Made by a program: the position numbers and the translations under genes | Notes under the pieces: generated by a model | The model's input: only the letters and a program-made list of their open reading frames with translations | The model's database searches: none | Told to the model about the DNA's origin: nothing | In this document: in pieces, positions 3,073 through 28,810 of the stretch | Numbering within the stretch: the stretch's first letter is position 1 | Layout: the number at the start of each line of letters is the position of its first letter | UHGV virus genome: UHGV-1443735 | DNA: 32,176 nt | Direction: 5' to 3' (one strand) | Origin: a virus

Positions 3073-3361
3073 TACTGATAGCGCCATAGCGTGAGCGGTA
3101 ATTACGCAGGCGCGGGTCGATATATTCAGGGAAGTGGGTATATGTGGCTTTGCGGAATGGTCGGATTGATGTCTGGTAAATTCGCTCGCGTTCTTCTTTC
3201 TCTGCAAGCCATATACAATGGCGAAATTCCTTTTCCTCTTTCGTTTCCTGCGGTAGCGACATTATCAGGTCGTAGTTTTTTCTGAATTTATCCAGCACCT
3301 CCGATACGGAATTGCCGGAACAGCGGCGCGGGTCATCCGCACCATACAGAGGCGCTGGCAT
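3065..3361 (-). CDS. hypothetical protein (98 aa)
   Basis: ORF immediately downstream of the SSB-like gene; AAGG-like RBS upstream of the ATG. Confidence 0.55.
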
Positions 3362-3384
3362 AATGGGAGCCTTATTTTCAGTAA

Positions 3385-3972
3385 TCAGAAAGGAGGGTAA
3401 TCGTTCTGGCTGTAACCATAATCATCTGCATGATTCTGGCTTACGTTTTTAGAGCGATTGTCTTTATCTTTGAGATTGGCAACCATGTTGGCGATAGTTT
3501 CTGGTTGCTTGCCTTCTGCCTTTTCTTTAAGGGTTTGACCTGTTTGTGCAATAAACGGGATGCGTATTTCCATCTGGTAGCTGTCTGCGCCAGTCTTTTT
3601 GTTTGTGGTTAATACTTTCTGAAGCACTAACCCGATTTTCTTTCCATGAAATTCAGGTGCAACAAATTTACTGGCGGAAACCATATGCTGCGTTAATTGT
3701 CCAATCCCGGCACACCCCATCATGGCGTGAACGACATTTGCGCCAAATTTGTTTTCCGTTCCGTCATTTTTCTGAACACAGACGCTAAGATATTGGATTT
3801 TACGTCCGTCGTCGGATTCGCCAGAAAACTCAATAAATTTGGCTCCTTTTTCTGATTGCTTTAGTTCTGCTTCAGTAATGGTAATGATATGAGCGCCAGT
3901 TTCGTTAATAAAACCACCTTGCCCTGCGGTCAGTGCTGCTTCTTCGTTATAAGTAAAAATCACGTTGCTCAT
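3385..3972 (-). CDS. phage SSB-like ssDNA-binding protein, probable partner of Sak4 (195 aa)
   Basis: C-terminus DDYGYSQNDYPPF resembles the acidic SSB tail ending in (D)IPF. Start overlaps the stop of the upstream ATPase gene (ATGA). The pairing of Sak4-type ATPase with a cognate SSB is known from phage recombination modules. Confidence 0.6.
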   Translation of the reverse strand: MSNVIFTYNEEAALTAGQGGFINETGAHIITITEAELKQSEKGAKFIEFSGESDDGRKIQYLSVCVQKNDGTENKFGANVVHAMMGCAGIGQLTQHMVSASKFVAPEFHGKKIGLVLQKVLTTNKKTGADSYQMEIRIPFIAQTGQTLKEKAEGKQPETIANMVANLKDKDNRSKNVSQNHADDYGYSQNDYPPF

Positions 3973-9989: not shown

Positions 9990-10010
9990 CTGCTTTCTAT
10001 GGAGTTAATT

Positions 10011-10811
10011 ATGGCAAAAAAACCTACACCAGACCAGGTAAAAAAGATTCGTTCCGGCATTACCAAGAAAATACGGTTTGAGGTTTTCAAGCGCGATGGC
10101 TTCAAATGCCAGTACTGTGGGAGTTCTGCGCCAGACGTCATCCTTCATGTCGACCATATCAACCCAGTTAGCAAGGGTGGCGATAACGACATGATGAACC
10201 TTATTACTTCTTGCGATAGTTGTAATGGCGGGAAAAGCGACAAACTGCTCAGCGATAACTCAATAATGGAAAAGCAAAGGCAGCAACTCCAGGAACTTAA
10301 TACCAAGCGAGAGCAACTGGAGATGATGATCAAGTGGCGAGATGGTCTTAAGAGCCTGAAAGACGATGTTGTTGATATTGTCGCTACCAAAATTGACGAC
10401 TGCATTGCGCCATTTACTGTTAATGACAATGGGCGAAAATCTATCAAGAGATGGCTTCGAATATATAAGCTTGAAGAAATCCTCGATGCGATTGAGATTG
10501 CTGCAGACAAAAAACTCACCCAAGAAATAACCCATGAGCTTACTGGTGAATTCTTTGAGTACATCCCTCGCATAGCAGCGACAAAAAGAAAACCGCCAAA
10601 AGAACAAAGGATTCTATACATCAGAGGAATCCTTAAAAACCGCATATATATCAATCAAAACCATGTAATGAGTTATCTCAAGGCATGGCTTTCATACGAC
10701 TTAGATCTCGATGAACTTACTGAGTTTGCGAAAACAGTACCTAACTGGACAACGTTCAAGGAGTGGGTATCTGAACGCATTCGTGAAGCTCAGGAAGAAC
10801 TCCCGTACTAA
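10011..10811 (+). CDS. HNH endonuclease (N-terminal HNH domain, uncharacterised C-terminal domain; about 266 aa)
   Basis: HNH motif CQYCGSS...HVDHINPVSKGG...CDSCNGGK; start refined to ATG at 10011 with GGAG RBS. The gene is AT-rich compared with the lambda-type cII flank. Confidence 0.8.
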   Translation: MAKKPTPDQVKKIRSGITKKIRFEVFKRDGFKCQYCGSSAPDVILHVDHINPVSKGGDNDMMNLITSCDSCNGGKSDKLLSDNSIMEKQRQQLQELNTKREQLEMMIKWRDGLKSLKDDVVDIVATKIDDCIAPFTVNDNGRKSIKRWLRIYKLEEILDAIEIAADKKLTQEITHELTGEFFEYIPRIAATKRKPPKEQRILYIRGILKNRIYINQNHVMSYLKAWLSYDLDLDELTEFAKTVPNWTTFKEWVSERIREAQEELPY

Positions 10812-12931: not shown

Positions 12932-13147
12932 ATGAGTACGATAGCTGAGCTTGTCAGGGCTAATTTTCGTGAAGAGTTGGTGCGTTGGTATCGGTATCGT
13001 TCATCGTCCAGTTTGCCGATTGATGAGTTGTATGAGCATTCACCTGCTGCACGACGCTATCCGCGTGACCGTGTTCTTCGACGGTTGTCCAAACTCAACA
13101 ATGAGTTTCAGCGCAACAGAATTATTCGGAGTCTGGATTTAAAGTAA
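12932..13147 (+). CDS. hypothetical nin-region protein (71 aa)
   Basis: ATG preceded by a GGAGG RBS immediately after the terminator. Confidence 0.55.
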   Translation: MSTIAELVRANFREELVRWYRYRSSSSLPIDELYEHSPAARRYPRDRVLRRLSKLNNEFQRNRIIRSLDLK

Positions 13148-13157
13148 ATGAGTGAGC

Positions 13158-13364
13158 ATGACAAATCAGCAGCAAATAGAGTTCATCCTTGAGCAGATTC
13201 GAAAAATGCGAGAAAAGAACCAGCCAGACATGATGGAAATATGGAGACGCCAGCAGGAAGAATACCGCAAGCATATTTTTGGTGAGAGAAAACAGGATGA
13301 CTGGAGCCTATATGGCTATGGCACCAGGACAAATAAAAACGGATATAGCCTTTACACATATTGA
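13158..13364 (+). CDS. hypothetical nin-region protein (about 68 aa)
   Basis: ORF; ATG at 13158 (the ORF-track start at 13152 is a GTG); weak RBS. Confidence 0.45.
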   Translation: MTNQQQIEFILEQIRKMREKNQPDMMEIWRRQQEEYRKHIFGERKQDDWSLYGYGTRTNKNGYSLYTY

Positions 13365-13372
13365 GGAATTCC

Positions 13373-13726
13373 ATGAAACAGACAATTTTCCTCAGGAGTA
13401 AGCAACAACAGCAAGCCGCAATCACCGCCATCCTCGCAACACCACTCGATAAAGACAAGCCAGTTACCATCCGCATTACTGACTACAAGCGCAACCTTGA
13501 CCAGAACGCAAAATTTCACGCGATGCTGGCGGATATCGCAAGTCAGGTTCAATGGTGCGGCAAATGGTTAAAACCAGAACAATGGAAGGTTTTGTTGATA
13601 AGCGGTCATGCAGTGGCAACAAAGCAGGAAGCTGATGTTTTGCCCGGGCTTGAAGGCGAATACGTCAACATTCGCGAAAGTAGCGCGCAGATGAGCGTGA
13701 AGCGCATGGCAAGCCTGATTGAGTAA
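13373..13726 (+). CDS. ninB: NinB-like recombination protein (about 117 aa)
   Basis: Similar to lambda NinB (…[27 protein letters not shown]…); ATG at 13373 with GAGGAA RBS (the ORF-track start at 13361 is a TTG). Confidence 0.75.
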
Positions 13727-13779
13727 ACGACAGCATGGGCTATTGGTCAGGGTGTCAGATTTACCGACAGGAGGTACGA

Positions 13780-13962
13780 ATGAGACGACAGCGACGAAGC
13801 ATCACCGACATCATCTGCGAAAACTGCAAATACCTTCCAACGAAACGCTCCAGAAATAAACGCAAGCCAATCCCAAAAGAATCTGACGTAAAAACCTTCA
13901 ACTACACGGCTCACCTGTGGGATATCCGGTGGCTTAGAGAACGTGCGAGGAAAACAAGGTGA
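13780..13962 (+). CDS. ninE: NinE-like protein (60 aa)
   Basis: [22 protein letters not shown]... matches my recollection of lambda NinE; AGGAGG RBS; the ORF-track start at 13735 is an upstream extension. Confidence 0.75.
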
Positions 13963-14129
13963 TTGACCAAAATCGAAGTTACGAACAAGAAAGCGTCGAG
14001 CGAGCTTTAACGTGCGCTAACTGCGGTCAGAAGCTGCATGTGCTGGAAGTTCACGTGTGTGAGCACTGCTGCGCAGAACTGATGAGCGATCCGAATAGCT
14101 CAATGTACGAGGAAGAAGACGATGAGTGA
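13959..14129 (+). CDS. ninF: NinF-like protein (56 aa)
   Basis: Found by manual translation ([44 protein letters not shown]...); GTG start overlapping the ninE stop; below the ORF-track cutoff. Confidence 0.65.
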
Positions 14130-14631
14130 TGTTAAAGAAAAAGATATCCCCGGCTTTGAGGGTATATATAAAGTAACTGAAAATGGAGACATCATTTCAT
14201 GCCGTAAATCAAAAAAATTATCTCATGGCATTAAACCAGGAGGATATGCATTTGTCGGTCTGTATCCAGGTGGCGGGAAAAGACCATCATATAAAATGGT
14301 TCACAGAATTGTTGCAGAAGTATTTATTGATAACCCAGATGGCAAACCGGAAGTTAATCACAAGGATGGAAATAAACTTAATAATAAAGTTGAAAATCTT
14401 GAGTGGGTAACGCGAACAGAAAATGCGAAACATGGATTTGATTCCGGATTGCTTGTTCATGGGTTTAATCATCACTTCTGCAAACTAACGCCAGAACAAG
14501 TGAAATCAATATATAAATCAAAAGGCAAATACAGAGATATAGCCAAAGAATTTGGTGTTTGTGCGCAGACAGTGTGCAACATAAAAAACAAATCAGCGTA
14601 CCGACGTTTTTTGGAGGGGATTGATGTTTAG
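14122..14631 (+). CDS. HNH homing endonuclease (NUMOD4 plus HNH_3 type, C-terminal HTH) (169 aa)
   Basis: NUMOD4-like IPGFEGIYKVTENG and HNH motif NHKDGNKLNNKVENLEW, with a C-terminal HTH-like segment. The start overlaps the ninF 3-prime end and the stop overlaps the DUF1364 start. AT-rich. Confidence 0.8.
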   Translation: MSDVKEKDIPGFEGIYKVTENGDIISCRKSKKLSHGIKPGGYAFVGLYPGGGKRPSYKMVHRIVAEVFIDNPDGKPEVNHKDGNKLNNKVENLEWVTRTENAKHGFDSGLLVHGFNHHFCKLTPEQVKSIYKSKGKYRDIAKEFGVCAQTVCNIKNKSAYRRFLEGIDV

Positions 14632-14899
14632 AAGCAAAAAATGGCTTCAGGCAGTCAGGGATATTGAATTTTGCGTTCTTTGCGGAAGATACGGAGTTCA
14701 GGCCGCTCATAGAAATGAAGGGAAGGGGGTTGGGATTAAAGTAGATGATTGCCTTACTGCTGCGCTATGTGTTGATTGTCATTCAAGAATTGATAATGGG
14801 AGAGATATGAGCAGGGAAGAGCGAAGGGCTGAAATGGATCGGGCCATTGTGCTTACCCTTAAAAAATTGGTTAACAATGGGAGGGTGTTTGTCCAATGA
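14624..14899 (+). CDS. DUF1364 (YbcO-like) putative zinc-binding nuclease (about 91 aa)
   Basis: Cys/His pattern CVLCG...AH...CLTAALCVDCH; ATG at 14624 with GGAGGGGA RBS; ATGA overlap with rusA. Confidence 0.6.
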   Translation: MFRSKKWLQAVRDIEFCVLCGRYGVQAAHRNEGKGVGIKVDDCLTAALCVDCHSRIDNGRDMSREERRAEMDRAIVLTLKKLVNNGRVFVQ

Positions 14900-15258
14900 A
14901 CGAATATCAGTTTGTGCTTCCATACCCGCCGTCGGTGAACACCTACTGGCGAAGACGGGGAAGCCAATACTACATCAGCGATAAAGGCCAGAAATACCGA
15001 AAAGATGTACAGCAAATAATCCGCCAACTCAAGTTAGACATTTTCACCAAATCACGACTCCGCATCAAAGTCATCGTAGACGTTCCGGACTCCCGCCGTC
15101 GCGACCTCGACAACATCCTGAAAGGTTTACTCGACTCCCTTATCCACGCCGGATTTGCGGAAGACGACGAGCAATTCGATGAAATTCGCGTAATTCGTGG
15201 TGTGAAAGTACCAGGCGGACGGCTTGGAATAAAAATCACTGAACTGGAGAACGTATGA
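14896..15258 (+). CDS. rusA: RusA-family Holliday junction resolvase (120 aa)
   Basis: Similar to E. coli RusA (...PPSVNTYW...VPDSRRRDLDNILKGLLDSL...GGRLGIKITEL). Confidence 0.88.
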   Translation: MNEYQFVLPYPPSVNTYWRRRGSQYYISDKGQKYRKDVQQIIRQLKLDIFTKSRLRIKVIVDVPDSRRRDLDNILKGLLDSLIHAGFAEDDEQFDEIRVIRGVKVPGGRLGIKITELENV

Positions 15259-15443
15259 ACGCCACAATTCAAACGATACCAGAGCTTCTTATCCAGACAC
15301 GAGGCAATCAGACCGAAGTGGCGAGGATGCTTTCCTGCGCAAGAGGAACAGTGCTCAAGTACAACCGAGACAGCAAAGGCGAGCGTCACGTAATAGTTAA
15401 CGGCGTCCTGATGGTCAAACAGGGCAAGAGGGGAAGACGATGA
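15255..15443 (+). CDS. ninH: NinH-like protein (62 aa)
   Basis: ...GNQTEVARMLSCARGTVLKY...IVNGVLMV resembles lambda NinH. Confidence 0.7.
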   Translation: MNATIQTIPELLIQTRGNQTEVARMLSCARGTVLKYNRDSKGERHVIVNGVLMVKQGKRGRR

Positions 15444-15928
15444 GCATAAGAGAAATAAACCTCACCAAAGAACAGCACGATTGGCTGAATGGCTGGCTTG
15501 AACTGTGGGGCGCATGGGTTTATTCAGGTCGTCTGGAAAAGCGCATGAGCAGCGTAATAGCGAAGTTCATGGAGAGCGTAGAGCCGGGAAGAGTTATGAC
15601 AAGGCCAATGTGTAATGATGATGATGGAATGTTGATTTCTCAGGTCGTCGATTCCGTCATGTGCATTGACAAGAAAGCCTTTGGAATCCTCCTCAGCTAC
15701 TACGCTCATGGCTCTTCCAAGCACGCCATTGCATCTTACTATCATCGCGTCGCAAGACCTCGCAAGATGTTATGCCGGGGCGGCGGGCGCATTCAAAAAC
15801 CATCGCTCGCAACCTGTCGCCGGGAAGTTGACGAAATCCTCAATGCCTCGTTGTTTATGATTTATCCGGTTCTGGATAGTGCGTTTAAAAACCGGAAACG
15901 TGTAGAGAAAATTAAACATGTAGCATAG
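15440..15928 (+). CDS. putative late-gene antiterminator, Q-like (162 aa)
   Basis: Last gene before the tR-prime-like terminator and lysis cassette; family assignment is from position and weak recall only. Confidence 0.5.
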   Translation: MSIREINLTKEQHDWLNGWLELWGAWVYSGRLEKRMSSVIAKFMESVEPGRVMTRPMCNDDDGMLISQVVDSVMCIDKKAFGILLSYYAHGSSKHAIASYYHRVARPRKMLCRGGGRIQKPSLATCRREVDEILNASLFMIYPVLDSAFKNRKRVEKIKHVA

Positions 15929-26078: not shown

Positions 26079-26267
26079 ATGGCACGAACAATGCTCTATA
26101 AGCCGGGCAACATGATCACCTGTGGTCAGTTTGCTGTCGATTACATCATTGTTGATGACGAAGAAGTTAAATCTCACCTGAAAAAAGGCTGGGTAAAAAC
26201 TCCTGAAGAAACCGCAACGAAGCAAAAAGTGGCTAAGGCGGAAGAAGATGGCGAAAACGAAGGGTGA
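26079..26267 (+). CDS. small hypothetical protein (about 62 aa)
   Basis: ATG at 26079 with GGGAGAAG RBS; the ORF-track start at 26043 falls inside the terminator. Confidence 0.5.
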   Translation: MARTMLYKPGNMITCGQFAVDYIIVDDEEVKSHLKKGWVKTPEETATKQKVAKAEEDGENEG

Positions 26268-26709
26268 TCTCGTTCTTAAGGCTTTACGAAAAGCCGGGCT
26301 GTATTCCAATGCCACGTTGACAGATGCTGACCCTCAGGCAATTGAAGATGCCATTAATGACCTCGAAGACATGATGGCAGCATGGCAGGCAAAAGGTATC
26401 GAGCTTGGGTATCAGTTTGCTGATACAGAAAACGGCATCATGCCGTTACCTGACGATGATTCAGGTATCCCTGCATGGGCAAATGATGGCGTCGCTTTGA
26501 AACTCGCTGTGCAAGTGTGCATGGATAACGTCATTCAGCCGTCAGACGCTCTCCTTACCGCTGCTGACAGTGCATATCAGACAATCTGTATCGCTTTAAC
26601 CAAAATACCACCACTTGAGCGGCGAAATGACATGCCTCGCGGTAGTGGTAACAAAAGCGCGTTTACGTGGAATCGGTTTTACATCGAGAAAGATGATCCG
26701 AGTACGTGA
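26248..26709 (+). CDS. head completion protein (P22 gp4-like) (153 aa)
   Basis: ...KGDLVLKALRKAGLYSNATLTDADPQAIEDAINDLEDMMAAW... resembles P22 gp4. Confidence 0.8.
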   Translation: MAKTKGDLVLKALRKAGLYSNATLTDADPQAIEDAINDLEDMMAAWQAKGIELGYQFADTENGIMPLPDDDSGIPAWANDGVALKLAVQVCMDNVIQPSDALLTAADSAYQTICIALTKIPPLERRNDMPRGSGNKSAFTWNRFYIEKDDPST

Positions 26710-26859: not shown

Positions 26860-27444
26860 ATGCTTTCTGAGAATGCTAAAGATATACCTGGATTTGAAGG
26901 TGTTTATGCCGTAACAGAAGATGGCAGGGTGCATTCTCACTCACGTGTTGTTAAGGCTGCGCATGGCAGCACGCAACTCAGAAAGGGGCGCTGGTTAAAG
27001 CCTAAAATAAATCAGGGAAGGGTGCTTTATAATATCGGAGCAAAATGGACTTTTGCCCATCGAATCGTTGCAATGACATTCCTGCCAAATCCTGAAAACA
27101 AGCCTCAGGTAAATCATATTGATGGCAATCCACTCAATAATAACGTCAATAATCTTGAGTGGTGCACTCAAAGCGAAAACATCAAACATGCATACGCCAC
27201 AGGATTAAAGAAACCAATCAAGTTTTTCGGAACCAAGCACCCAAAACACAAGTTGAGTGATGACGATGTTCTTGCAATCAAGTCATCAAAAGAAAGCTTG
27301 TCAGTAATTGCGGCTAAGTACGGGATATCTAAGACCTGGGCAAGTAGGCTAAAGCGTGATGCTAACTGGGTTCATATAAAGGTTGATTCCAATGGCAATA
27401 CAACAACTACCACTAATGAAGGGATTAGGGAAAAGTGCGGTTAA
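26860..27444 (+). CDS. HNH homing endonuclease (NUMOD4 plus HNH_3 type) inserted in the 5-prime end of gene 10
   Basis: AAGGAG RBS; NUMOD4-like IPGFEGVYAVTEDG, HNH motif NHIDGNPLNNNVNNLEW, C-terminal HTH-like region. AT-rich. Paralog-like to the endonuclease at 14122-14631. The last ~18 codons read through the restored gene 10 start in another frame, so the true C-terminus is uncertain. Confidence 0.8.
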   Translation: MLSENAKDIPGFEGVYAVTEDGRVHSHSRVVKAAHGSTQLRKGRWLKPKINQGRVLYNIGAKWTFAHRIVAMTFLPNPENKPQVNHIDGNPLNNNVNNLEWCTQSENIKHAYATGLKKPIKFFGTKHPKHKLSDDDVLAIKSSKESLSVIAAKYGISKTWASRLKRDANWVHIKVDSNGNTTTTTNEGIREKCG

Positions 27445-28810
27445 TGCTGATTATATAGACCAACTTCCAGTCAATCTTTTAGCTACGCCCAAGGAGGTGT
27501 TGAATTCATCGGGATATCTTCGCTCATTTCCGGGCATTGCCAAACGCTCTGATGTGAACGGCGTATCTCGCGGAGTCGAGTACAACATGGCGCAGAATGC
27601 TGTTTATCGCGTGTGTGGTGGCAAACTGTACAAAGGAGAAAGTGAAGTCGGTGACGTCGCCGGAAGTGGTCGCGTATCAATGGCGCATGGTCGGACATCT
27701 CAGGCTGTAGGCGTTAATGGTCAACTGGTCGAGTATCGCTATGATGGCACGGTTAAAACCGTCTCAAACTGGCCTACAGACAGCGGATTCACGCAGTATG
27801 AGTTAGGTTCGGTTCGTGACATTACTCGCTTACGTGGGCGTTATGCGTGGTCAAAAGACGGTACTGATTCATGGTTCATCACTGACCCTGAAGACGAATC
27901 GCATCCTGACCGCTACAGTGCACAATATCGTGCAGAATCGCAGCCGGACGGCATCATCGGCATCGGAACATGGCGAGACTTCATCGTCTGCTTTGGTTCA
28001 TCGACGATTGAATATTTCTCCCTGACTGGTGCAACCACCGTTGGTGCTGCTTTGTATGTCGCACAGCCATCGTTGATGGTGCAGAAAGGCATTGCAGGAA
28101 CCTACTGCAAAACGCAGTTTTCTGATTCGTATGCGTTCATCAGCAATCCGGCAACAGGTGCGCCGTCTGTTTACATCATCGGATCCGGTCAGGTGTCACC
28201 AATCGCCAGCGCGAGCATTGAGAAAATCCTCCGCTCCTACACCGCGGATGAACTGGCTGATGGCGTGATGGAGTCTCTGCGATTTGATGCGCATGAACTG
28301 CTGATTATCCATCTTCCGCGCCATGTCCTCGTGTACGACGCATCTTCAAGCGCCAATGGTCCGCAATGGTGCGTACTGAAAACAGGACTGTATGACGATG
28401 TGTACCGCGCTATCGACTTCATTTACGAAGGCAATCAGATAACGTGCGGCGATAAGCTGGAATCCGTGACCGGGAAATTGCAGTTCGATATCAGCAGCCA
28501 GTACGACAAGCAGCAGGAACACCTGCTGTTTACTCCGTTGTTCAAAGCGGATAACGCCAGAGTGTTCGACCTTGAGGTTGAGTCGTCAACTGGCGTTGCG
28601 CAGTATGCTGACCGCCTGTTCCTCTCTGCAACCACTGACGGCATCAATTACGGACGTGAGCAGATGATTGAGCAGAATGAACCGTTCGTTTACGACAAAC
28701 GCGTTTTGTGGAAGCGAGTCGGGCGCATCAGGAAAAATGTCGGCTTCAAATTGCGCGTTATCACGAAGTCACCTGTCACTCTTTCTGGCTGCCAGATAAG
28801 GATTGAGTAA
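27392..28810 (+). CDS. tail accessory protein (P22 gp10-like), restarted after the endonuclease cassette (about 472 aa)
   Basis: [49 protein letters not shown]... is a gp10-type N-terminus; its first ~30 codons are a recoded duplicate of the orphaned fragment at 26719-26823. Confidence 0.8.

What the first reader, a model, noticed from the sequence alone, without database searches (positions are those of the whole stretch)
14122..14631. Second NUMOD4/HNH homing endonuclease wedged between ninF and the DUF1364 gene, overlapping both
Its ATG and RBS lie inside the ninF 3-prime end and its stop overlaps the DUF1364 start, so it is inserted without breaking either neighbour. It shares architecture (NUMOD4, HNH_3, C-terminal HTH) with the endonuclease at 26860-27444 but is clearly diverged from it. 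With the HNH gene at 10011, the window carries three HNH nucleases.
Basis: partly seen in the sequence, partly recalled or inferred. Interest (0 to 1): 0.5.

Follow-up and report, generated by a model that had tools for sequence, protein, structure and literature searches.

The report
Selfish HNH nuclease gene in phage
The ORF is a real, intact I-HmuI-type HNH homing-endonuclease gene in the nin region of a lambda/P22-like E. coli phage; it is ordinary in kind, but it always travels with the small nuclease gene just downstream of it.

Summary
Window 14122-14631 (+) encodes a 169-aa protein with NUMOD4 and HNH_3 domains above the Pfam cut-offs. Its only significant solved relative is the homing endonuclease I-HmuI, by sequence (E 9e-19) and by full-length fold (E 6e-10). 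The catalytic His80/Asn92/Asn101 are conserved. It overlaps ninF by 8 nt and the next gene by 8 nt, and is 39% identical to the 26860-27444 protein. The window carries three HNH genes.

Two refinements. The downstream "DUF1364" gene is a 91-aa, sub-threshold relative of YbcO/DUF1364, not the common hkbD allele. Compared with HK620, mEp043, mEp235 and 683R2, the HNH plus this gene (14131-14895) form one foreign, low-GC3 two-gene block that replaces "slot gene + hkbD".

Every close HNH relative examined (57-77% identity) sits directly 5' of a 91-aa-family gene, yet most 91-aa genes lack an HNH (114 of 136 loci). Relatives begin with the first ~15 codons of canonical DUF1364. One window-type variant is joined at nt 29 of hkbD.

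Best reading: an active or recently active free-standing homing endonuclease that spreads with a replacement allele. Identical copies are already annotated in phages Dewey and Louie and in 33 E. coli genomes. Interest is modest.

The parts
13959..14129 (+). ninF (56 aa). Its last 8 nt overlap the HNH start, and it carries the HNH Shine-Dalgarno sequence (GAGGA, 14109-14113).
   Evidence: Pfam NinF 47.4 bits against a 27.5 cut-off. Sequence read directly. The 3' end GACGATGAGTGAT is shared as a junction by several alternative downstream cassettes.
14122..14631 (+). I-HmuI-like HNH endonuclease gene (169 aa), the finding itself.
   Evidence: Pfam NUMOD4 and HNH_3. I-HmuI 1U3E by sequence, E 8.9e-19. 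AF2 model pLDDT 91 with Foldseek match to 1U3E, E 6e-10 over 165 columns. 100% identical copies in phages Dewey and Louie. Copies at 98.5% identity or higher in 33 E. coli genomes.
14140..14265 (+). NUMOD4 N-terminal beta-strand DNA-binding module (aa 7-48).
   Evidence: Pfam PF07463, 29.2 bits against 23.4. Strands E6-8, E16-19, E24-26 and E43-47 in the model.
14293..14427 (+). HNH (beta-beta-alpha-metal) catalytic core, aa 58-102. His80 codon is 14359-14361 (CAC), Asn92 is 14395-14397, Asn101 is 14422-14424.
   Evidence: Pfam PF13392, 42.2 bits against 24.8. Aligns with I-HmuI His75/Asn87/Asn96; I-HmuI Asp74 is Asn79 here. N79, H80, N92, N101 and H104 are invariant in 53 homologues.
14491..14619 (+). 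C-terminal helical / helix-turn-helix DNA-binding domain (aa ~124-166). It also carries the Shine-Dalgarno sequence GGAGGGG (14613-14619) of the next gene.
   Evidence: Helices H124-132, H137-144, H148-155 and H161-166. Included in the full-length I-HmuI fold match. Weak CENP-B_N HTH hit, E 0.006. The motif 'FGVCAQTVCNIK' is conserved in the clade.
14624..14899 (+). 91-aa Cys/His-rich protein gene, a distant sister of YbcO/DUF1364 and DUF968 (predicted His-Me/treble-clef nuclease). It co-travels with the HNH gene.
   Evidence: Sub-threshold YbcO and DUF968 hits. 27 of 28 family members hit YbcO weakly, best E 2.8e-6. PDB YbcO 3G27 at E 0.023. 28% identity to HK620 HkbD with a shared C..C..H..K.DD..C..CH..ID pattern. 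GC3 0.37.
14131..14895 (+). Two-gene block (HNH + 91-aa gene) with no DNA homology to the corresponding segment of HK620, mEp043, mEp235 or 683R2. Homology stops 9-14 nt into the HNH ORF and resumes exactly at the rusA ATG.
   Evidence: blastn breakpoints at window 14130/14135 and 14896. Junction sequences shown.
14283..14612 (+). Segment removed by a 330-bp in-frame deletion in degenerate copies (E. coli AH19B041, L008; IMG/VR L078). The deletion leaves a 59-aa NUMOD4-only stub.
   Evidence: blastn breakpoints and junction sequence. PGAP annotates the stub as 'NUMOD4 domain-containing protein', 180 bp. L078 shows the same endpoints.
14896..15258 (+). rusA (Holliday-junction resolvase), the first gene of resumed homology. 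It is the right-hand flank shared with HNH-less phages.
   Evidence: Pfam RusA. 96-98% DNA identity to HK620, mEp043 and mEp235 starting at 14896.

Best explanation
Window 14122-14631 is a free-standing homing-endonuclease gene of the I-HmuI type. It has an N-terminal NUMOD4 DNA-binding module, an HNH catalytic core and a C-terminal helix-turn-helix. It sits in the early-right (nin) operon of a mosaic lambda/P22-like E. coli phage.

Shown:
- The protein is intact, under purifying selection and catalytically plausible.
- It is translationally coupled to ninF upstream and to a 91-aa YbcO/DUF1364-like gene downstream.
- It is compositionally foreign.
- It is sporadically distributed. Its clade is tied to one genomic site: directly next to the small DUF1364-superfamily nuclease gene of lambdoid nin regions.
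- The HNH gene and the 91-aa gene travel together as a two-gene block.
- Many relatives still begin with the first ~15 codons of the canonical DUF1364 (hkbD/ybcO) gene, fused in frame.
- One variant of this very allele is joined at nt 29 of hkbD.

Inferred mechanism: during lytic co-replication with a related phage that lacks it, the enzyme nicks or cuts the rival's DNA near the 5' end of its DUF1364-family gene. Recombinational repair then copies the HNH gene into the rival. Co-conversion carries along the linked 91-aa allele, which lacks the canonical target sequence. This would be 'intronless homing' with local marker exclusion, as described for the T4 Seg and Mob enzymes.

In this window the hkbD remnant has been lost. 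The gene instead uses the ninF-embedded start codon (ATGAGTGAT) that other cassettes in this slot also use.
For: Identity of the protein
- Pfam NUMOD4 and HNH_3 are above their cut-offs.
- I-HmuI is the best and only significant solved relative, by sequence (E 8.9e-19) and by fold (pLDDT 91; Foldseek E 6e-10 over 165 columns).
- His80, Asn92 and Asn101 are invariant in 53 homologues.

Functional constraint
- Among 19 full-length copies there are 11 synonymous and 3 non-synonymous polymorphisms, and no stop codons.
- The related P0003-type alleles differ by 9 synonymous and 0 non-synonymous changes.

Foreign origin
- GC3 is 0.276 for the HNH gene and 0.370 for the 91-aa gene, against 0.53-0.57 for ninB, ninE, ninF, rusA, ninH and Q.

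Sporadic presence
- The HNH gene is in 34 of 5426 complete E. coli genomes.
- The 91-aa family has 56 loci in species-representative genomes and at least 547 in IMG/VR.
- An HNH gene lies upstream in only 22 of the 136 loci examined. All 20 loci whose 91-aa allele is at least 99% identical have it.
- Three E. coli genomes carry the same 91-aa allele without the HNH gene.
- Degenerate copies exist with a 330-bp in-frame deletion.

Site specificity of the clade
- Relatives P0003, P0016, P0014, P0019 and P0022 and loci L030 and L092 (57-77% identity) all sit directly 5' of a 91-aa-family gene. Their upstream neighbours differ: ninF, roi, small hypothetical genes, a DNA methylase, DUF1367.
- P0037 (52%) lies 5' of a canonical YbcO gene.
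- P0044 (55%) lies between YbcO and RusA.
- P0049 (45%) lies 5' of a DUF968-like nuclease gene.
- Relatives at 44% identity or less are in unrelated contexts.

Linkage and co-divergence
- HNH identity of 73% and 65% goes with 91-aa identity of 78% and 62%.
- DNA homology between loci with and without the HNH gene starts within the first ~3 codons of the 91-aa gene.

Footprints of landing in canonical DUF1364
- The relatives' N-termini read 'MANLRKEARGRECQV', matching hkbD codons 1-15 at the DNA level as well.
- L009, L087 and L088 have the order ninF-roi-[hkbD nt 1-29]-[ninF tail]-HNH-91aa-rusA.
- The window contains no canonical hkbD 5' sequence.

Literature parallels
- Free-standing endonucleases, co-conversion and marker exclusion in T4 (PMC2988022).
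- I-HmuI-like HNH genes of lactococcal phages cluster by insertion site and show marker exclusion (PMC12724721).
Against: - No cleavage activity, target site or super-Mendelian inheritance has been shown for this protein or any close relative.
- The metal ligand Asp74 of I-HmuI is Asn79 here. It is invariant in the clade, so it is probably tolerated, but this is untested.
- The lambdoid nin region is notoriously mosaic. The same ninF-embedded start codon serves roi and two other cassettes. Ordinary recombination at gene boundaries could therefore produce the same presence/absence pattern without any endonuclease activity.
- The canonical hkbD-type DUF1364 gene, the proposed target, is still present in 957 of 5426 E. 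coli genomes, against 34 with the HNH cassette. There has been no sweep.
- The P0003-type lineage is absent from complete E. coli genomes.
- The three 'empty' loci with the same 91-aa allele also differ in their ninF type and in the first ~6 codons. They are not a clean, scar-free empty site.
- The hkbD-remnant junctions amount to only two independent events.
Confidence: 0.68

Rival explanations
1. This is an immobile or domesticated nuclease gene. It is simply one of several interchangeable accessory cassettes in the ninF-rusA variable slot. It is shuffled among lambdoid phages by ordinary homologous or illegitimate recombination at conserved gene-boundary joints, not by its own cutting activity. 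Its function would be some benefit to the phage, for example degrading competitor or host DNA, or processing recombination intermediates alongside NinB and RusA.
For: - The slot after ninF holds roi (HK620), a 70-aa gene (mEp043, 683R2), an 89-aa gene (mEp235) or the HNH gene. All use the same ninF-embedded ATG, and several share the first three codons ATGAGTGAT.
- Module boundaries fall exactly at gene boundaries (14130/14135 and 14896), as is usual for lambdoid mosaicism.
- The block appears in many upstream and downstream backgrounds.
- Purifying selection fits a useful gene as well as an active selfish one.
- The cassette has not swept against canonical hkbD.
Against: - The protein has the complete architecture of a sequence-specific homing enzyme (I-HmuI), including both DNA-binding modules.
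- The clade is tied to one site across 45-77% identity, while more distant relatives sit next to classic homing targets such as a DNA polymerase gene.
- In-frame hkbD 5' remnants, and a second junction 16 nt away in the same gene, point to repeated breakage at that spot.
- Degenerate copies fit the invade-fix-decay cycle of selfish endonuclease genes.
Confidence: 0.2
2. The HNH protein and the 91-aa His-Me-like protein form an obligate two-protein functional unit. One possibility is that the 91-aa nuclease supplies second-strand cleavage, because I-HmuI-type enzymes are nickases. Another is that the pair acts as an inter-phage competition or anti-defence module. In this reading the linkage reflects function rather than co-conversion.
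For: - All seven close HNH relatives examined (57-77% identity) have the 91-aa gene immediately downstream with overlapping stop and start codons, which implies translational coupling.
- The two genes have diverged to similar extents.
- Both have low GC3.
Against: - The 91-aa family mostly stands alone: 114 of 136 loci have no HNH gene upstream. It therefore does not need the HNH protein.
- Copies in which the HNH catalytic and HTH domains are deleted still keep an intact 91-aa gene and its Shine-Dalgarno sequence.
- More distant HNH relatives pair with other subfamilies (YbcO, DUF968-like), and once in the opposite order. This fits positional linkage in a syntenic nin region better than a specific protein partnership.
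Confidence: 0.08
3. The gene is a decaying, non-functional relic of an old invasion.
For: - Truncated versions exist (L008, L078).
- Asp74 of I-HmuI is replaced by Asn.
Against: - The window copy is full length.
- The 11:3 synonymous to non-synonymous polymorphism ratio, with no stops in 19 copies, indicates selection. So do the 9:0 ratio in the sister lineage and the invariant catalytic residues in 53 homologues.
Confidence: 0.04

Closest known systems
I-HmuI (Bacillus phage SPO1 intron-encoded HNH homing endonuclease; PDB 1U3E)
   Same: - Same three-part architecture and length (169 aa against 174 aa).
- Sequence match at E 8.9e-19 over aa 6-121.
- Full-length fold match at E 6e-10.
- The catalytic His, Asn and Asn are conserved.
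   Different: - I-HmuI is encoded inside a group I intron of a DNA polymerase gene of a virulent Bacillus phage, and it is a nickase. This gene is free-standing, in a temperate enterobacterial phage, next to a DUF1364-like gene.
- The metal ligand Asp74 is Asn79 here.
- Only ~29-40% identity. Activity and target are unknown.
Free-standing HNH/GIY-YIG homing endonucleases of T-even phages (MobE, SegF, SegG; 'intronless homing' with marker exclusion; PMC2988022, PMC2790892)
   Same: - A stand-alone ORF tucked between or overlapping conserved genes.
- Sporadic distribution among related phages.
- Flanking alleles are co-inherited. Here the 91-aa allele takes the role that T4 gene 56 takes with segF.
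   Different: - Those systems are shown experimentally in virulent T4-like phages. Here everything beyond the sequence is inferred.
- The linked flanking gene here is a very divergent paralogue (28% identity to hkbD) rather than a slightly diverged allele.
- Relatives are fused in frame to the first 15 codons of the displaced gene.
I-HmuI-like HNH endonucleases of lactococcal Skunavirus phages (PMC12724721)
   Same: - The same enzyme family.
- Members cluster by insertion location.
- That paper reports marker-exclusion activity for expressed HNH endonucleases (abstract).
- DNA-level hits to lactococcal phage HNH genes over the catalytic core.
   Different: - Gram-positive virulent phages and different insertion sites.
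- Only ~70% nucleotide identity over ~150 nt of the HNH core.
Identical annotated genes: Escherichia phage Dewey CDS0060 (XPK40831.1), phage Louie CDS0054 (XPK42211.1), and RefSeq 'NUMOD4 motif-containing HNH endonuclease' in 33 E. coli genomes
   Same: 100% (phages) and 98.5-100% (genomes) nucleotide identity, in the same ninF-HNH-91aa-rusA arrangement.
   Different: Nothing of substance. These are automatic annotations without functional study. Upstream and downstream mosaic backgrounds differ.
The window's other NUMOD4/HNH_3 gene (26860-27444)
   Same: The same Pfam architecture and 39% identity, E 3e-28. It is also a presence/absence insertion.
   Different: - A different site, between the P22 gp4-like and gp10-like head-completion genes.
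- A different lineage, 25 aa longer, with GC3 of 0.40.

Membership tests
HNH_3 (PF13392) His-Me finger endonucleases | Profile match above the Pfam gathering score. | tested here: met
   42.2 bits against a 24.8 cut-off, aa 58-102.
HNH_3 (PF13392) His-Me finger endonucleases | Catalytic His, structural Asn and metal-binding Asn/His in a beta-beta-alpha fold. | tested here: met
   His80, Asn92 and Asn101 align with I-HmuI His75, Asn87 and Asn96. They are invariant in 53 homologues. The model shows strands E77-80 and E93-96 followed by helix H98-107. I-HmuI Asp74 is Asn79 here.
NUMOD4 (PF07463) | Profile match above the gathering score at the N-terminus. | tested here: met
   29.2 bits against a 23.4 cut-off, aa 7-48.
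I-HmuI-like homing endonucleases (structural family) | Full-length fold: N-terminal beta-sheet DNA-binding domain, HNH core and C-terminal HTH. | tested here: met
   AF2 model with pLDDT 91.1. Foldseek against PDB gives 1U3E as rank 1, E 6e-10, probability 1.00, 165 aligned columns, and no other hit below E 1e-3.
Free-standing homing endonuclease genes (functional class) | Own ORF, not inside an intron or intein. | tested here: met
   A separate ORF with its own ATG and Shine-Dalgarno sequence, between ninF and the 91-aa gene. Relatives are in-frame fusions to a 15-codon remnant of DUF1364, not inteins.
Free-standing homing endonuclease genes (functional class) | Sporadic presence/absence at a conserved locus among related genomes, including degenerate copies. 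| tested here: met
   34 of 5426 E. coli genomes. HNH gene upstream of 22 of 136 loci of the 91-aa family. Three E. coli loci carry the same 91-aa allele without it. 330-bp deletion derivatives exist.
Free-standing homing endonuclease genes (functional class) | Site-specific cleavage of alleles that lack the gene. | not testable with these tools
   Only indirect evidence: hkbD 5' remnants at nt 44/45 and nt 29, and no canonical hkbD 5' sequence in the window.
Free-standing homing endonuclease genes (functional class) | Unidirectional gene conversion (super-Mendelian inheritance) with co-conversion of flanks. | not testable with these tools
   Indirect evidence only: complete linkage of the HNH gene with one 91-aa allele, and the constant HNH-91aa-rusA-ninH block in varied backgrounds.
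YbcO / DUF1364 (PF07102), for the downstream gene 14624-14899 | Profile match above the Pfam gathering score. | tested here: not met
   18.9 bits against a 29.9 cut-off. DUF968 gives 19.3 bits against 27.8. 27 of 28 family members hit YbcO only weakly, best E 2.8e-6. No NCBIfam hit. PGAP names it 'hypothetical protein' but names hkbD 'DUF1364 domain-containing protein'.
YbcO / DUF1364 (PF07102), for the downstream gene 14624-14899 | Conserved Cys/His zinc and active-site pattern, and the same genomic position (just 5' of rusA). | tested here: met
   Alignment with HK620 HkbD gives 28% identity with shared C, R, G.G, K, DD, C..CH and ID columns. YbcO structure 3G27 is the best PDB hit, though marginal at E 0.023. 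The gene occupies the same position before rusA.
NinF (PF05810), for the upstream gene 13959-14129 | Profile match above the gathering score. | tested here: met
   47.4 bits against a 27.5 cut-off. 95-99% DNA identity to ninF of HK620, mEp043 and 683R2.

The most novel reading that the evidence does not exclude
The HNH gene and the 91-aa gene together may be a natural 'cleave-and-rescue' cassette. In this reading the endonuclease breaks the canonical DUF1364 (hkbD/ybcO) gene of rival lambdoid phages within its first ~30-45 nt. Repair then installs the endonuclease gene together with a highly divergent, cleavage-immune paralogue (the 91-aa gene) that restores the lost function. The drive would thus replace a whole gene family member rather than merely inserting beside it.

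The 15-codon hkbD remnant that many clade members carry as their N-terminus would be the left 'exon' of this event.
Probability: 0.3. Interest if true: 0.6.

Novelty: new member of a known kind. Interest (0 to 1): 0.3.

Why it matters
In itself this is a routine selfish element. Identical copies are already auto-annotated as HNH endonucleases in two sequenced phages and in 33 E. coli genomes.

The surroundings offer something modestly useful. They give a clean, tractable case of a homing-endonuclease clade specialised on one locus of temperate lambdoid phages, the DUF1364/YbcO-like gene before rusA. The case has several informative features:
- a co-travelling replacement allele;
- recognisable footprints of the displaced gene;
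- an intact form, an empty form and a degenerate form, all available in public genomes.

Homing has been studied mostly in virulent T4-like, SPO1-like and lactococcal phages. This case could show how much endonuclease-driven gene conversion contributes to the well-known mosaicism of the lambdoid nin region. It also points to a concrete 30-45-nt candidate target for experiment.

Tried and rejected
- Flanking repeats. I looked for direct or inverted repeats that would mark a transposon-like insertion. Only chance 10-13-nt matches were found. Rejected.
- NCBIfam. It gave no family for the HNH protein, the 91-aa protein or the 26860 protein.
- Solved relative of the 91-aa family. A profile search of PDB gave only a marginal YbcO hit (E 0.023). 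Membership of DUF1364 is therefore stated only as a distant relationship.
- Disrupted 91-aa gene. One Citrobacter-type locus (L155) seemed to have a truncated 91-aa gene beside an intact HNH gene, which would have argued against a functional partnership. The sequence is identical to the intact L154 gene, and the 56-aa call is a gene-caller artefact. Dropped.
- P0003-type lineage in E. coli. I expected this hkbD-fused lineage to be common in E. coli. It has no match in 5426 complete genomes.
- Sweep of the target. I tested whether the cassette had displaced its proposed target in E. coli. It has not: canonical hkbD is in 957 genomes against 34 for the cassette.
- Literature. Searches for a described homing endonuclease in the lambdoid nin region found nothing specific. 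The nearest was an eaE::HNH fusion in phage epsilon34, at another locus.
- Terminase-associated HNH. I considered an HK97 gp74-type role in packaging. It is rejected because the gene lies in the early nin operon of a P22-like phage and has the I-HmuI architecture, not the small PF01844 type.
Full report
**1. What is at the coordinates**

The ORF list and the raw sequence confirm an ATG-to-TAG ORF at 14122-14631 on the + strand, encoding 169 aa.
- The upstream ORF 13959-14129 is ninF (Pfam NinF, 47.4 bits).
- The HNH ATG lies 8 nt inside ninF (ATGAGTGA). A GAGGA Shine-Dalgarno sequence at 14109-14113 is also inside ninF.
- The HNH stop codon (TAG, 14629-14631) lies inside the next ORF, whose ATG is at 14624. 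That ORF's GGAGGGG Shine-Dalgarno sequence (14613-14619) lies inside the HNH coding sequence.
- The gene order around it is ninB (13361-13726), ninE (13735-13962), ninF, HNH, a 91-aa gene (14624-14899), rusA (14896-15258), ninH (15255-15443) and Q (15440-15928).
- The window as a whole is a mosaic lambda/P22-like phage with no full-length match. The best partial matches are E. coli phages Louie and Dewey.

**2. What the protein is**

- Pfam finds NUMOD4 (aa 7-48, 29.2 bits against a 23.4 cut-off) and HNH_3 (aa 58-102, 42.2 bits against 24.8).
- Against all PDB sequences, the only real hit is the SPO1 homing endonuclease I-HmuI (1U3E), E 8.9e-19 over aa 6-121.
- In that alignment His80, Asn92 and Asn101 fall on I-HmuI His75, Asn87 and Asn96. 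I-HmuI Asp74 is Asn79 here.
- In an alignment of 53 homologues, N79, H80, N92, N101 and H104 are invariant.
- An AlphaFold model built on that alignment is confident (mean pLDDT 91.1).
- Its only significant Foldseek match in PDB is again 1U3E, over 165 of 169 columns (E 6e-10, probability 1.00). The C-terminal helix-turn-helix is therefore confirmed as part of an I-HmuI-type architecture.
The protein is 39% identical (E 3e-28) to the 26860-27444 protein, which has the same two Pfam domains.
- The ORF 9999-10811 is a third HNH protein, of type PF01844.

**3. Is it a maintained gene?**

Identical or near-identical copies are common.
- Phages Dewey and Louie carry 100% identical copies.
- 34 of 5426 complete E. 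coli genomes carry it; 33 cover at least 80% of the query and one (AH19B041) has the internal deletion. RefSeq annotates it as 'NUMOD4 motif-containing HNH endonuclease'.
- It is also in 20 IMG/VR contigs.
- Among 19 full-length copies (10 DNA alleles) there are 14 polymorphic sites: 11 synonymous, 3 non-synonymous, and no stop codons or frameshifts.
- In a sister lineage (P0003-type), two loci differ by 9 synonymous and 0 non-synonymous changes.

This indicates purifying selection, so the protein is functional or was until very recently.

**4. Is it foreign?**

- GC is 0.367 and GC3 is 0.276 for the HNH gene.
- GC3 is 0.53-0.57 for ninB, ninE, ninF, rusA, ninH and Q.
- The 91-aa gene is also low, at GC3 0.370.
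- There are no flanking repeats.

**5. What 'inserted' means here**

Compared with HK620, mEp043, mEp235 and 683R2, DNA homology runs through ninF and stops 9-14 nt into the HNH ORF (window 14130/14135). It resumes exactly at the rusA ATG (14896). The differing unit is therefore HNH plus the 91-aa gene, not the HNH gene alone.

In those phages the same interval holds two genes:
- a variable 'slot' gene: roi (HK620), a 70-aa ORF (mEp043, 683R2) or an 89-aa ORF (mEp235);
- followed by the canonical DUF1364 gene hkbD/gp66.

Each slot gene starts at the same ninF-embedded ATG. Several share the first three codons, ATGAGTGAT. The overlap with ninF is thus a standard lambdoid module joint, not something the endonuclease created.

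**6. The downstream gene**

- The 91-aa protein scores below threshold for YbcO/PF07102, the former DUF1364 (18.9 bits against 29.9), and for DUF968.
- 27 of 28 family members hit YbcO weakly.
- The E. coli YbcO structure 3G27 is the best PDB hit, but only marginally (E 0.023).
- It aligns with HkbD at 28% identity, with the Cys/His pattern conserved.
- The DUF1364 family has been predicted to be a treble-clef/His-Me nuclease (PMC4999995, PMC5714182).

It is therefore a sister family of DUF1364 that occupies the DUF1364 position. The family is widespread, with 56 loci in species-representative genomes (Erwinia, Xenorhabdus, Serratia, Enterobacter, Providencia and beyond) and at least 547 in IMG/VR.

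**7. Distribution of the HNH gene relative to that family**

- tblastn over 136 fetched loci finds an HNH gene immediately upstream in only 22. That is 1 of 56 genome loci and 21 of 80 viral loci.
- All 20 loci whose 91-aa allele is at least 99% identical to the window's have it. One of these (L078) has only a 54-aa stub.
- In complete E. coli genomes, this 91-aa allele occurs 33 times with an intact HNH gene.
- It occurs once with a 330-bp in-frame deletion (window 14283-14612) that removes the HNH and HTH domains.
- It occurs three times without any HNH gene: RM8082, DETEC-S565 and NCTC9104.
- In those three genomes, homology to the window begins at 14633, two bases after the HNH stop codon. 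Their ninF type and the first ~6 codons also differ.
- In general, alleles without the HNH gene begin M-(A/K/T)-I-(Y/F)-R-S, and alleles with it begin M-(F/Y)-R-S. DNA homology between the two kinds starts within the first ~3 codons of the 91-aa gene.

This is the invade, fix, decay pattern expected of a selfish endonuclease gene.

**8. Site specificity of the clade**

A protein search gave 1326 homologues at E <= 1e-10. I looked up the genomic context of representatives.

| Relative | Identity to window HNH | Context |
|---|---|---|
| P0003 (E. coli) | 73% | directly 5' of a 91-aa-family gene |
| P0016 (Salmonella) | 65% | directly 5' of a 91-aa-family gene |
| P0014 | 65% | directly 5' of a 91-aa-family gene |
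| P0019 (Klebsiella) | 63% | directly 5' of a 91-aa-family gene |
| P0022 (Citrobacter) | 60% | directly 5' of a 91-aa-family gene |
| L030, L092 | not measured against the window copy (71% and 78% to P0003) | directly 5' of a 91-aa-family gene |
| P0037 | 52% | 5' of a canonical YbcO gene |
| P0044 (Basfia) | 55% | between YbcO and RusA |
| P0049 | 45% | 5' of a DUF968/RecA_dep_nuc-like gene |
| P0100 | 44% | after a DNA polymerase gene |
| P0093 | 42% | unrelated context |

- For the relatives 5' of a 91-aa-family gene, the stop and start codons overlap. Their upstream neighbours differ: small hypothetical genes, a 658-aa DNA methylase, or DUF1367. Their downstream neighbours are RusA or Q.
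- The HNH and 91-aa proteins have diverged in parallel: 73% with 78%, and 65% with 62%.
- The window-type HNH-91aa-rusA-ninH block is constant across many different upstream (NinB type, with or without Dam, with or without roi) and downstream (Q type) backgrounds.
- This matches what was reported for I-HmuI-like genes of lactococcal phages, which cluster by insertion site (PMC12724721).

**9. Footprints of the displaced gene**

- Many clade members (P0003, P0005, P0007, P0009, P0011, P0018, P0022, P0024; loci L010-L012, L030, L092) begin with 'M(A/S)(N/D)LRK(E/A)ARGREC(Q/R)V'.
- This is the first ~15 codons of canonical DUF1364/hkbD, similar at the DNA level as well. It is fused in frame to the NUMOD4 start.
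- P0016 retains a decayed version.
- Separately, a variant of the window's own allele (E. coli QML220601 = L009; IMG/VR L087 and L088) has the order ninF-roi-[hkbD nt 1-29]-[~15 nt of ninF 3' end]-HNH-91aa-rusA.
- So there are two independent left junctions, 16 nt apart, inside the 5' end of the same gene. This is circumstantial evidence that breaks occur there.
- The window itself contains no canonical hkbD 5' sequence.

**10. Mechanism proposed**

Shown: an intact, selected, I-HmuI-type enzyme gene. It is translationally coupled into the nin operon. It is foreign in composition, sporadic in distribution, specific to one site, linked to one allele of its neighbour, and accompanied by remnants of the displaced paralogue.

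Inferred: during lytic co-replication with an HNH-less relative, the enzyme nicks or cuts near the 5' end of the DUF1364-family gene. Recombinational repair copies in the HNH gene and, by co-conversion, the 91-aa allele. This is intronless homing with marker exclusion, as for T4 SegF, SegG and MobE (PMC2988022, PMC2790892).

Points against:
- There is no biochemical or genetic evidence.
- The nin region is mosaic anyway.
- The proposed target is still in 957 of 5426 E. coli genomes, against 34 for the cassette.
- The 'empty' loci are not scar-free.

I put 0.68 on an active or recently active homing element. The alternatives are an immobile accessory nuclease shuffled by ordinary mosaic recombination (0.20), an obligate two-protein module (0.08) and a dead relic (0.04).

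**11. Novelty and verdict**

- The gene is already present and auto-annotated in public records. Its kind, a free-standing I-HmuI-like homing endonuclease, is well known.
- I did not find three things described in two full-text searches: the clade's fixed association with the DUF1364-superfamily gene of lambdoid nin regions, the co-travelling 91-aa replacement allele, and the hkbD-remnant N-termini.
- These are worth a short experimental follow-up but do not change the category.

Noticed in passing
window 26860-27444 (with 26248-26709 and ~27450-28810): The other NUMOD4/HNH_3 gene is a clean presence/absence insertion between the P22 gp4-like (P22_Tail-4) and gp10-like (Phage_stabilise) genes. 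It is present at 96% identity in Salmonella phage UPF_BP1. It is absent from CUS-3, Sf101, Kapi1, Huey and others, where the flanks are about 670 bp closer together. Its GC3 is 0.40 against 0.46-0.55 in the flanks.
   Followed up: partly
window 9999-10811: The third HNH gene (270 aa) is a PF01844/HNH_5-type protein, not the I-HmuI type. Its HNH region weakly resembles the HNH domain of IscB/Cas9d in NCBIfam, far below their cut-offs (60 bits against 175). It sits immediately upstream of a 298-aa ORF with no Pfam hit and a DnaC/IstB-like loader gene. Its role was not examined.
   Followed up: no
window 14109-14134, and the same joint in L002, L004, L005 and L006: The ninF 3' end, GAGGAAGAAGACGATGAGTGAT, acts as a universal joint. 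At least four unrelated downstream cassettes (roi, a 70-aa ORF, an 89-aa ORF and the HNH gene) start at the same embedded ATG. Three of them share the first three codons, M-S-D. This is a neat example of a lambdoid mosaic boundary placed at a translational-coupling site.
   Followed up: partly
L011 1996-2544 (Logan ERR702855 contig); also L077 784-972: Some related nin regions carry a second, unrelated HNH_3 gene a few genes upstream of the DUF1364-site HNH gene. L011 has a 182-aa HNH_3 protein two genes upstream. L077 has a partial 43%-identity hit. One nin region can therefore host several endonuclease genes.
   Followed up: no
L007 1329-1767 (E. coli RM8082), and L016, L093-L100: In loci without the HNH gene, a divergent NinF-family gene overlaps the 91-aa gene by 23 nt. 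The dual-coding junction sequence (…GGAGATATCTCAGATGGCAATATACCGGAGCAGTAAATGGCT…) is strongly conserved across many loci. It is a second plausible recognition site for the endonuclease.
   Followed up: no
window 12932-13147 and 13152-13364: Two small ORFs lie between the MarR-like gene and ninB. One is DUF7301 (E 6e-25). The other is a 70-aa ORF with no family. Both recur at 100% identity in IMG/VR loci L084 and L090. Their function is unknown.
   Followed up: no
L088 3273-3633: In one IMG/VR locus with the roi-HNH arrangement, the rusA match is split into two overlapping pieces (3273-3428 at 96% and 3361-3633 at 78%). This suggests a recombination joint or frameshift inside rusA, just downstream of the cassette.
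   Followed up: no
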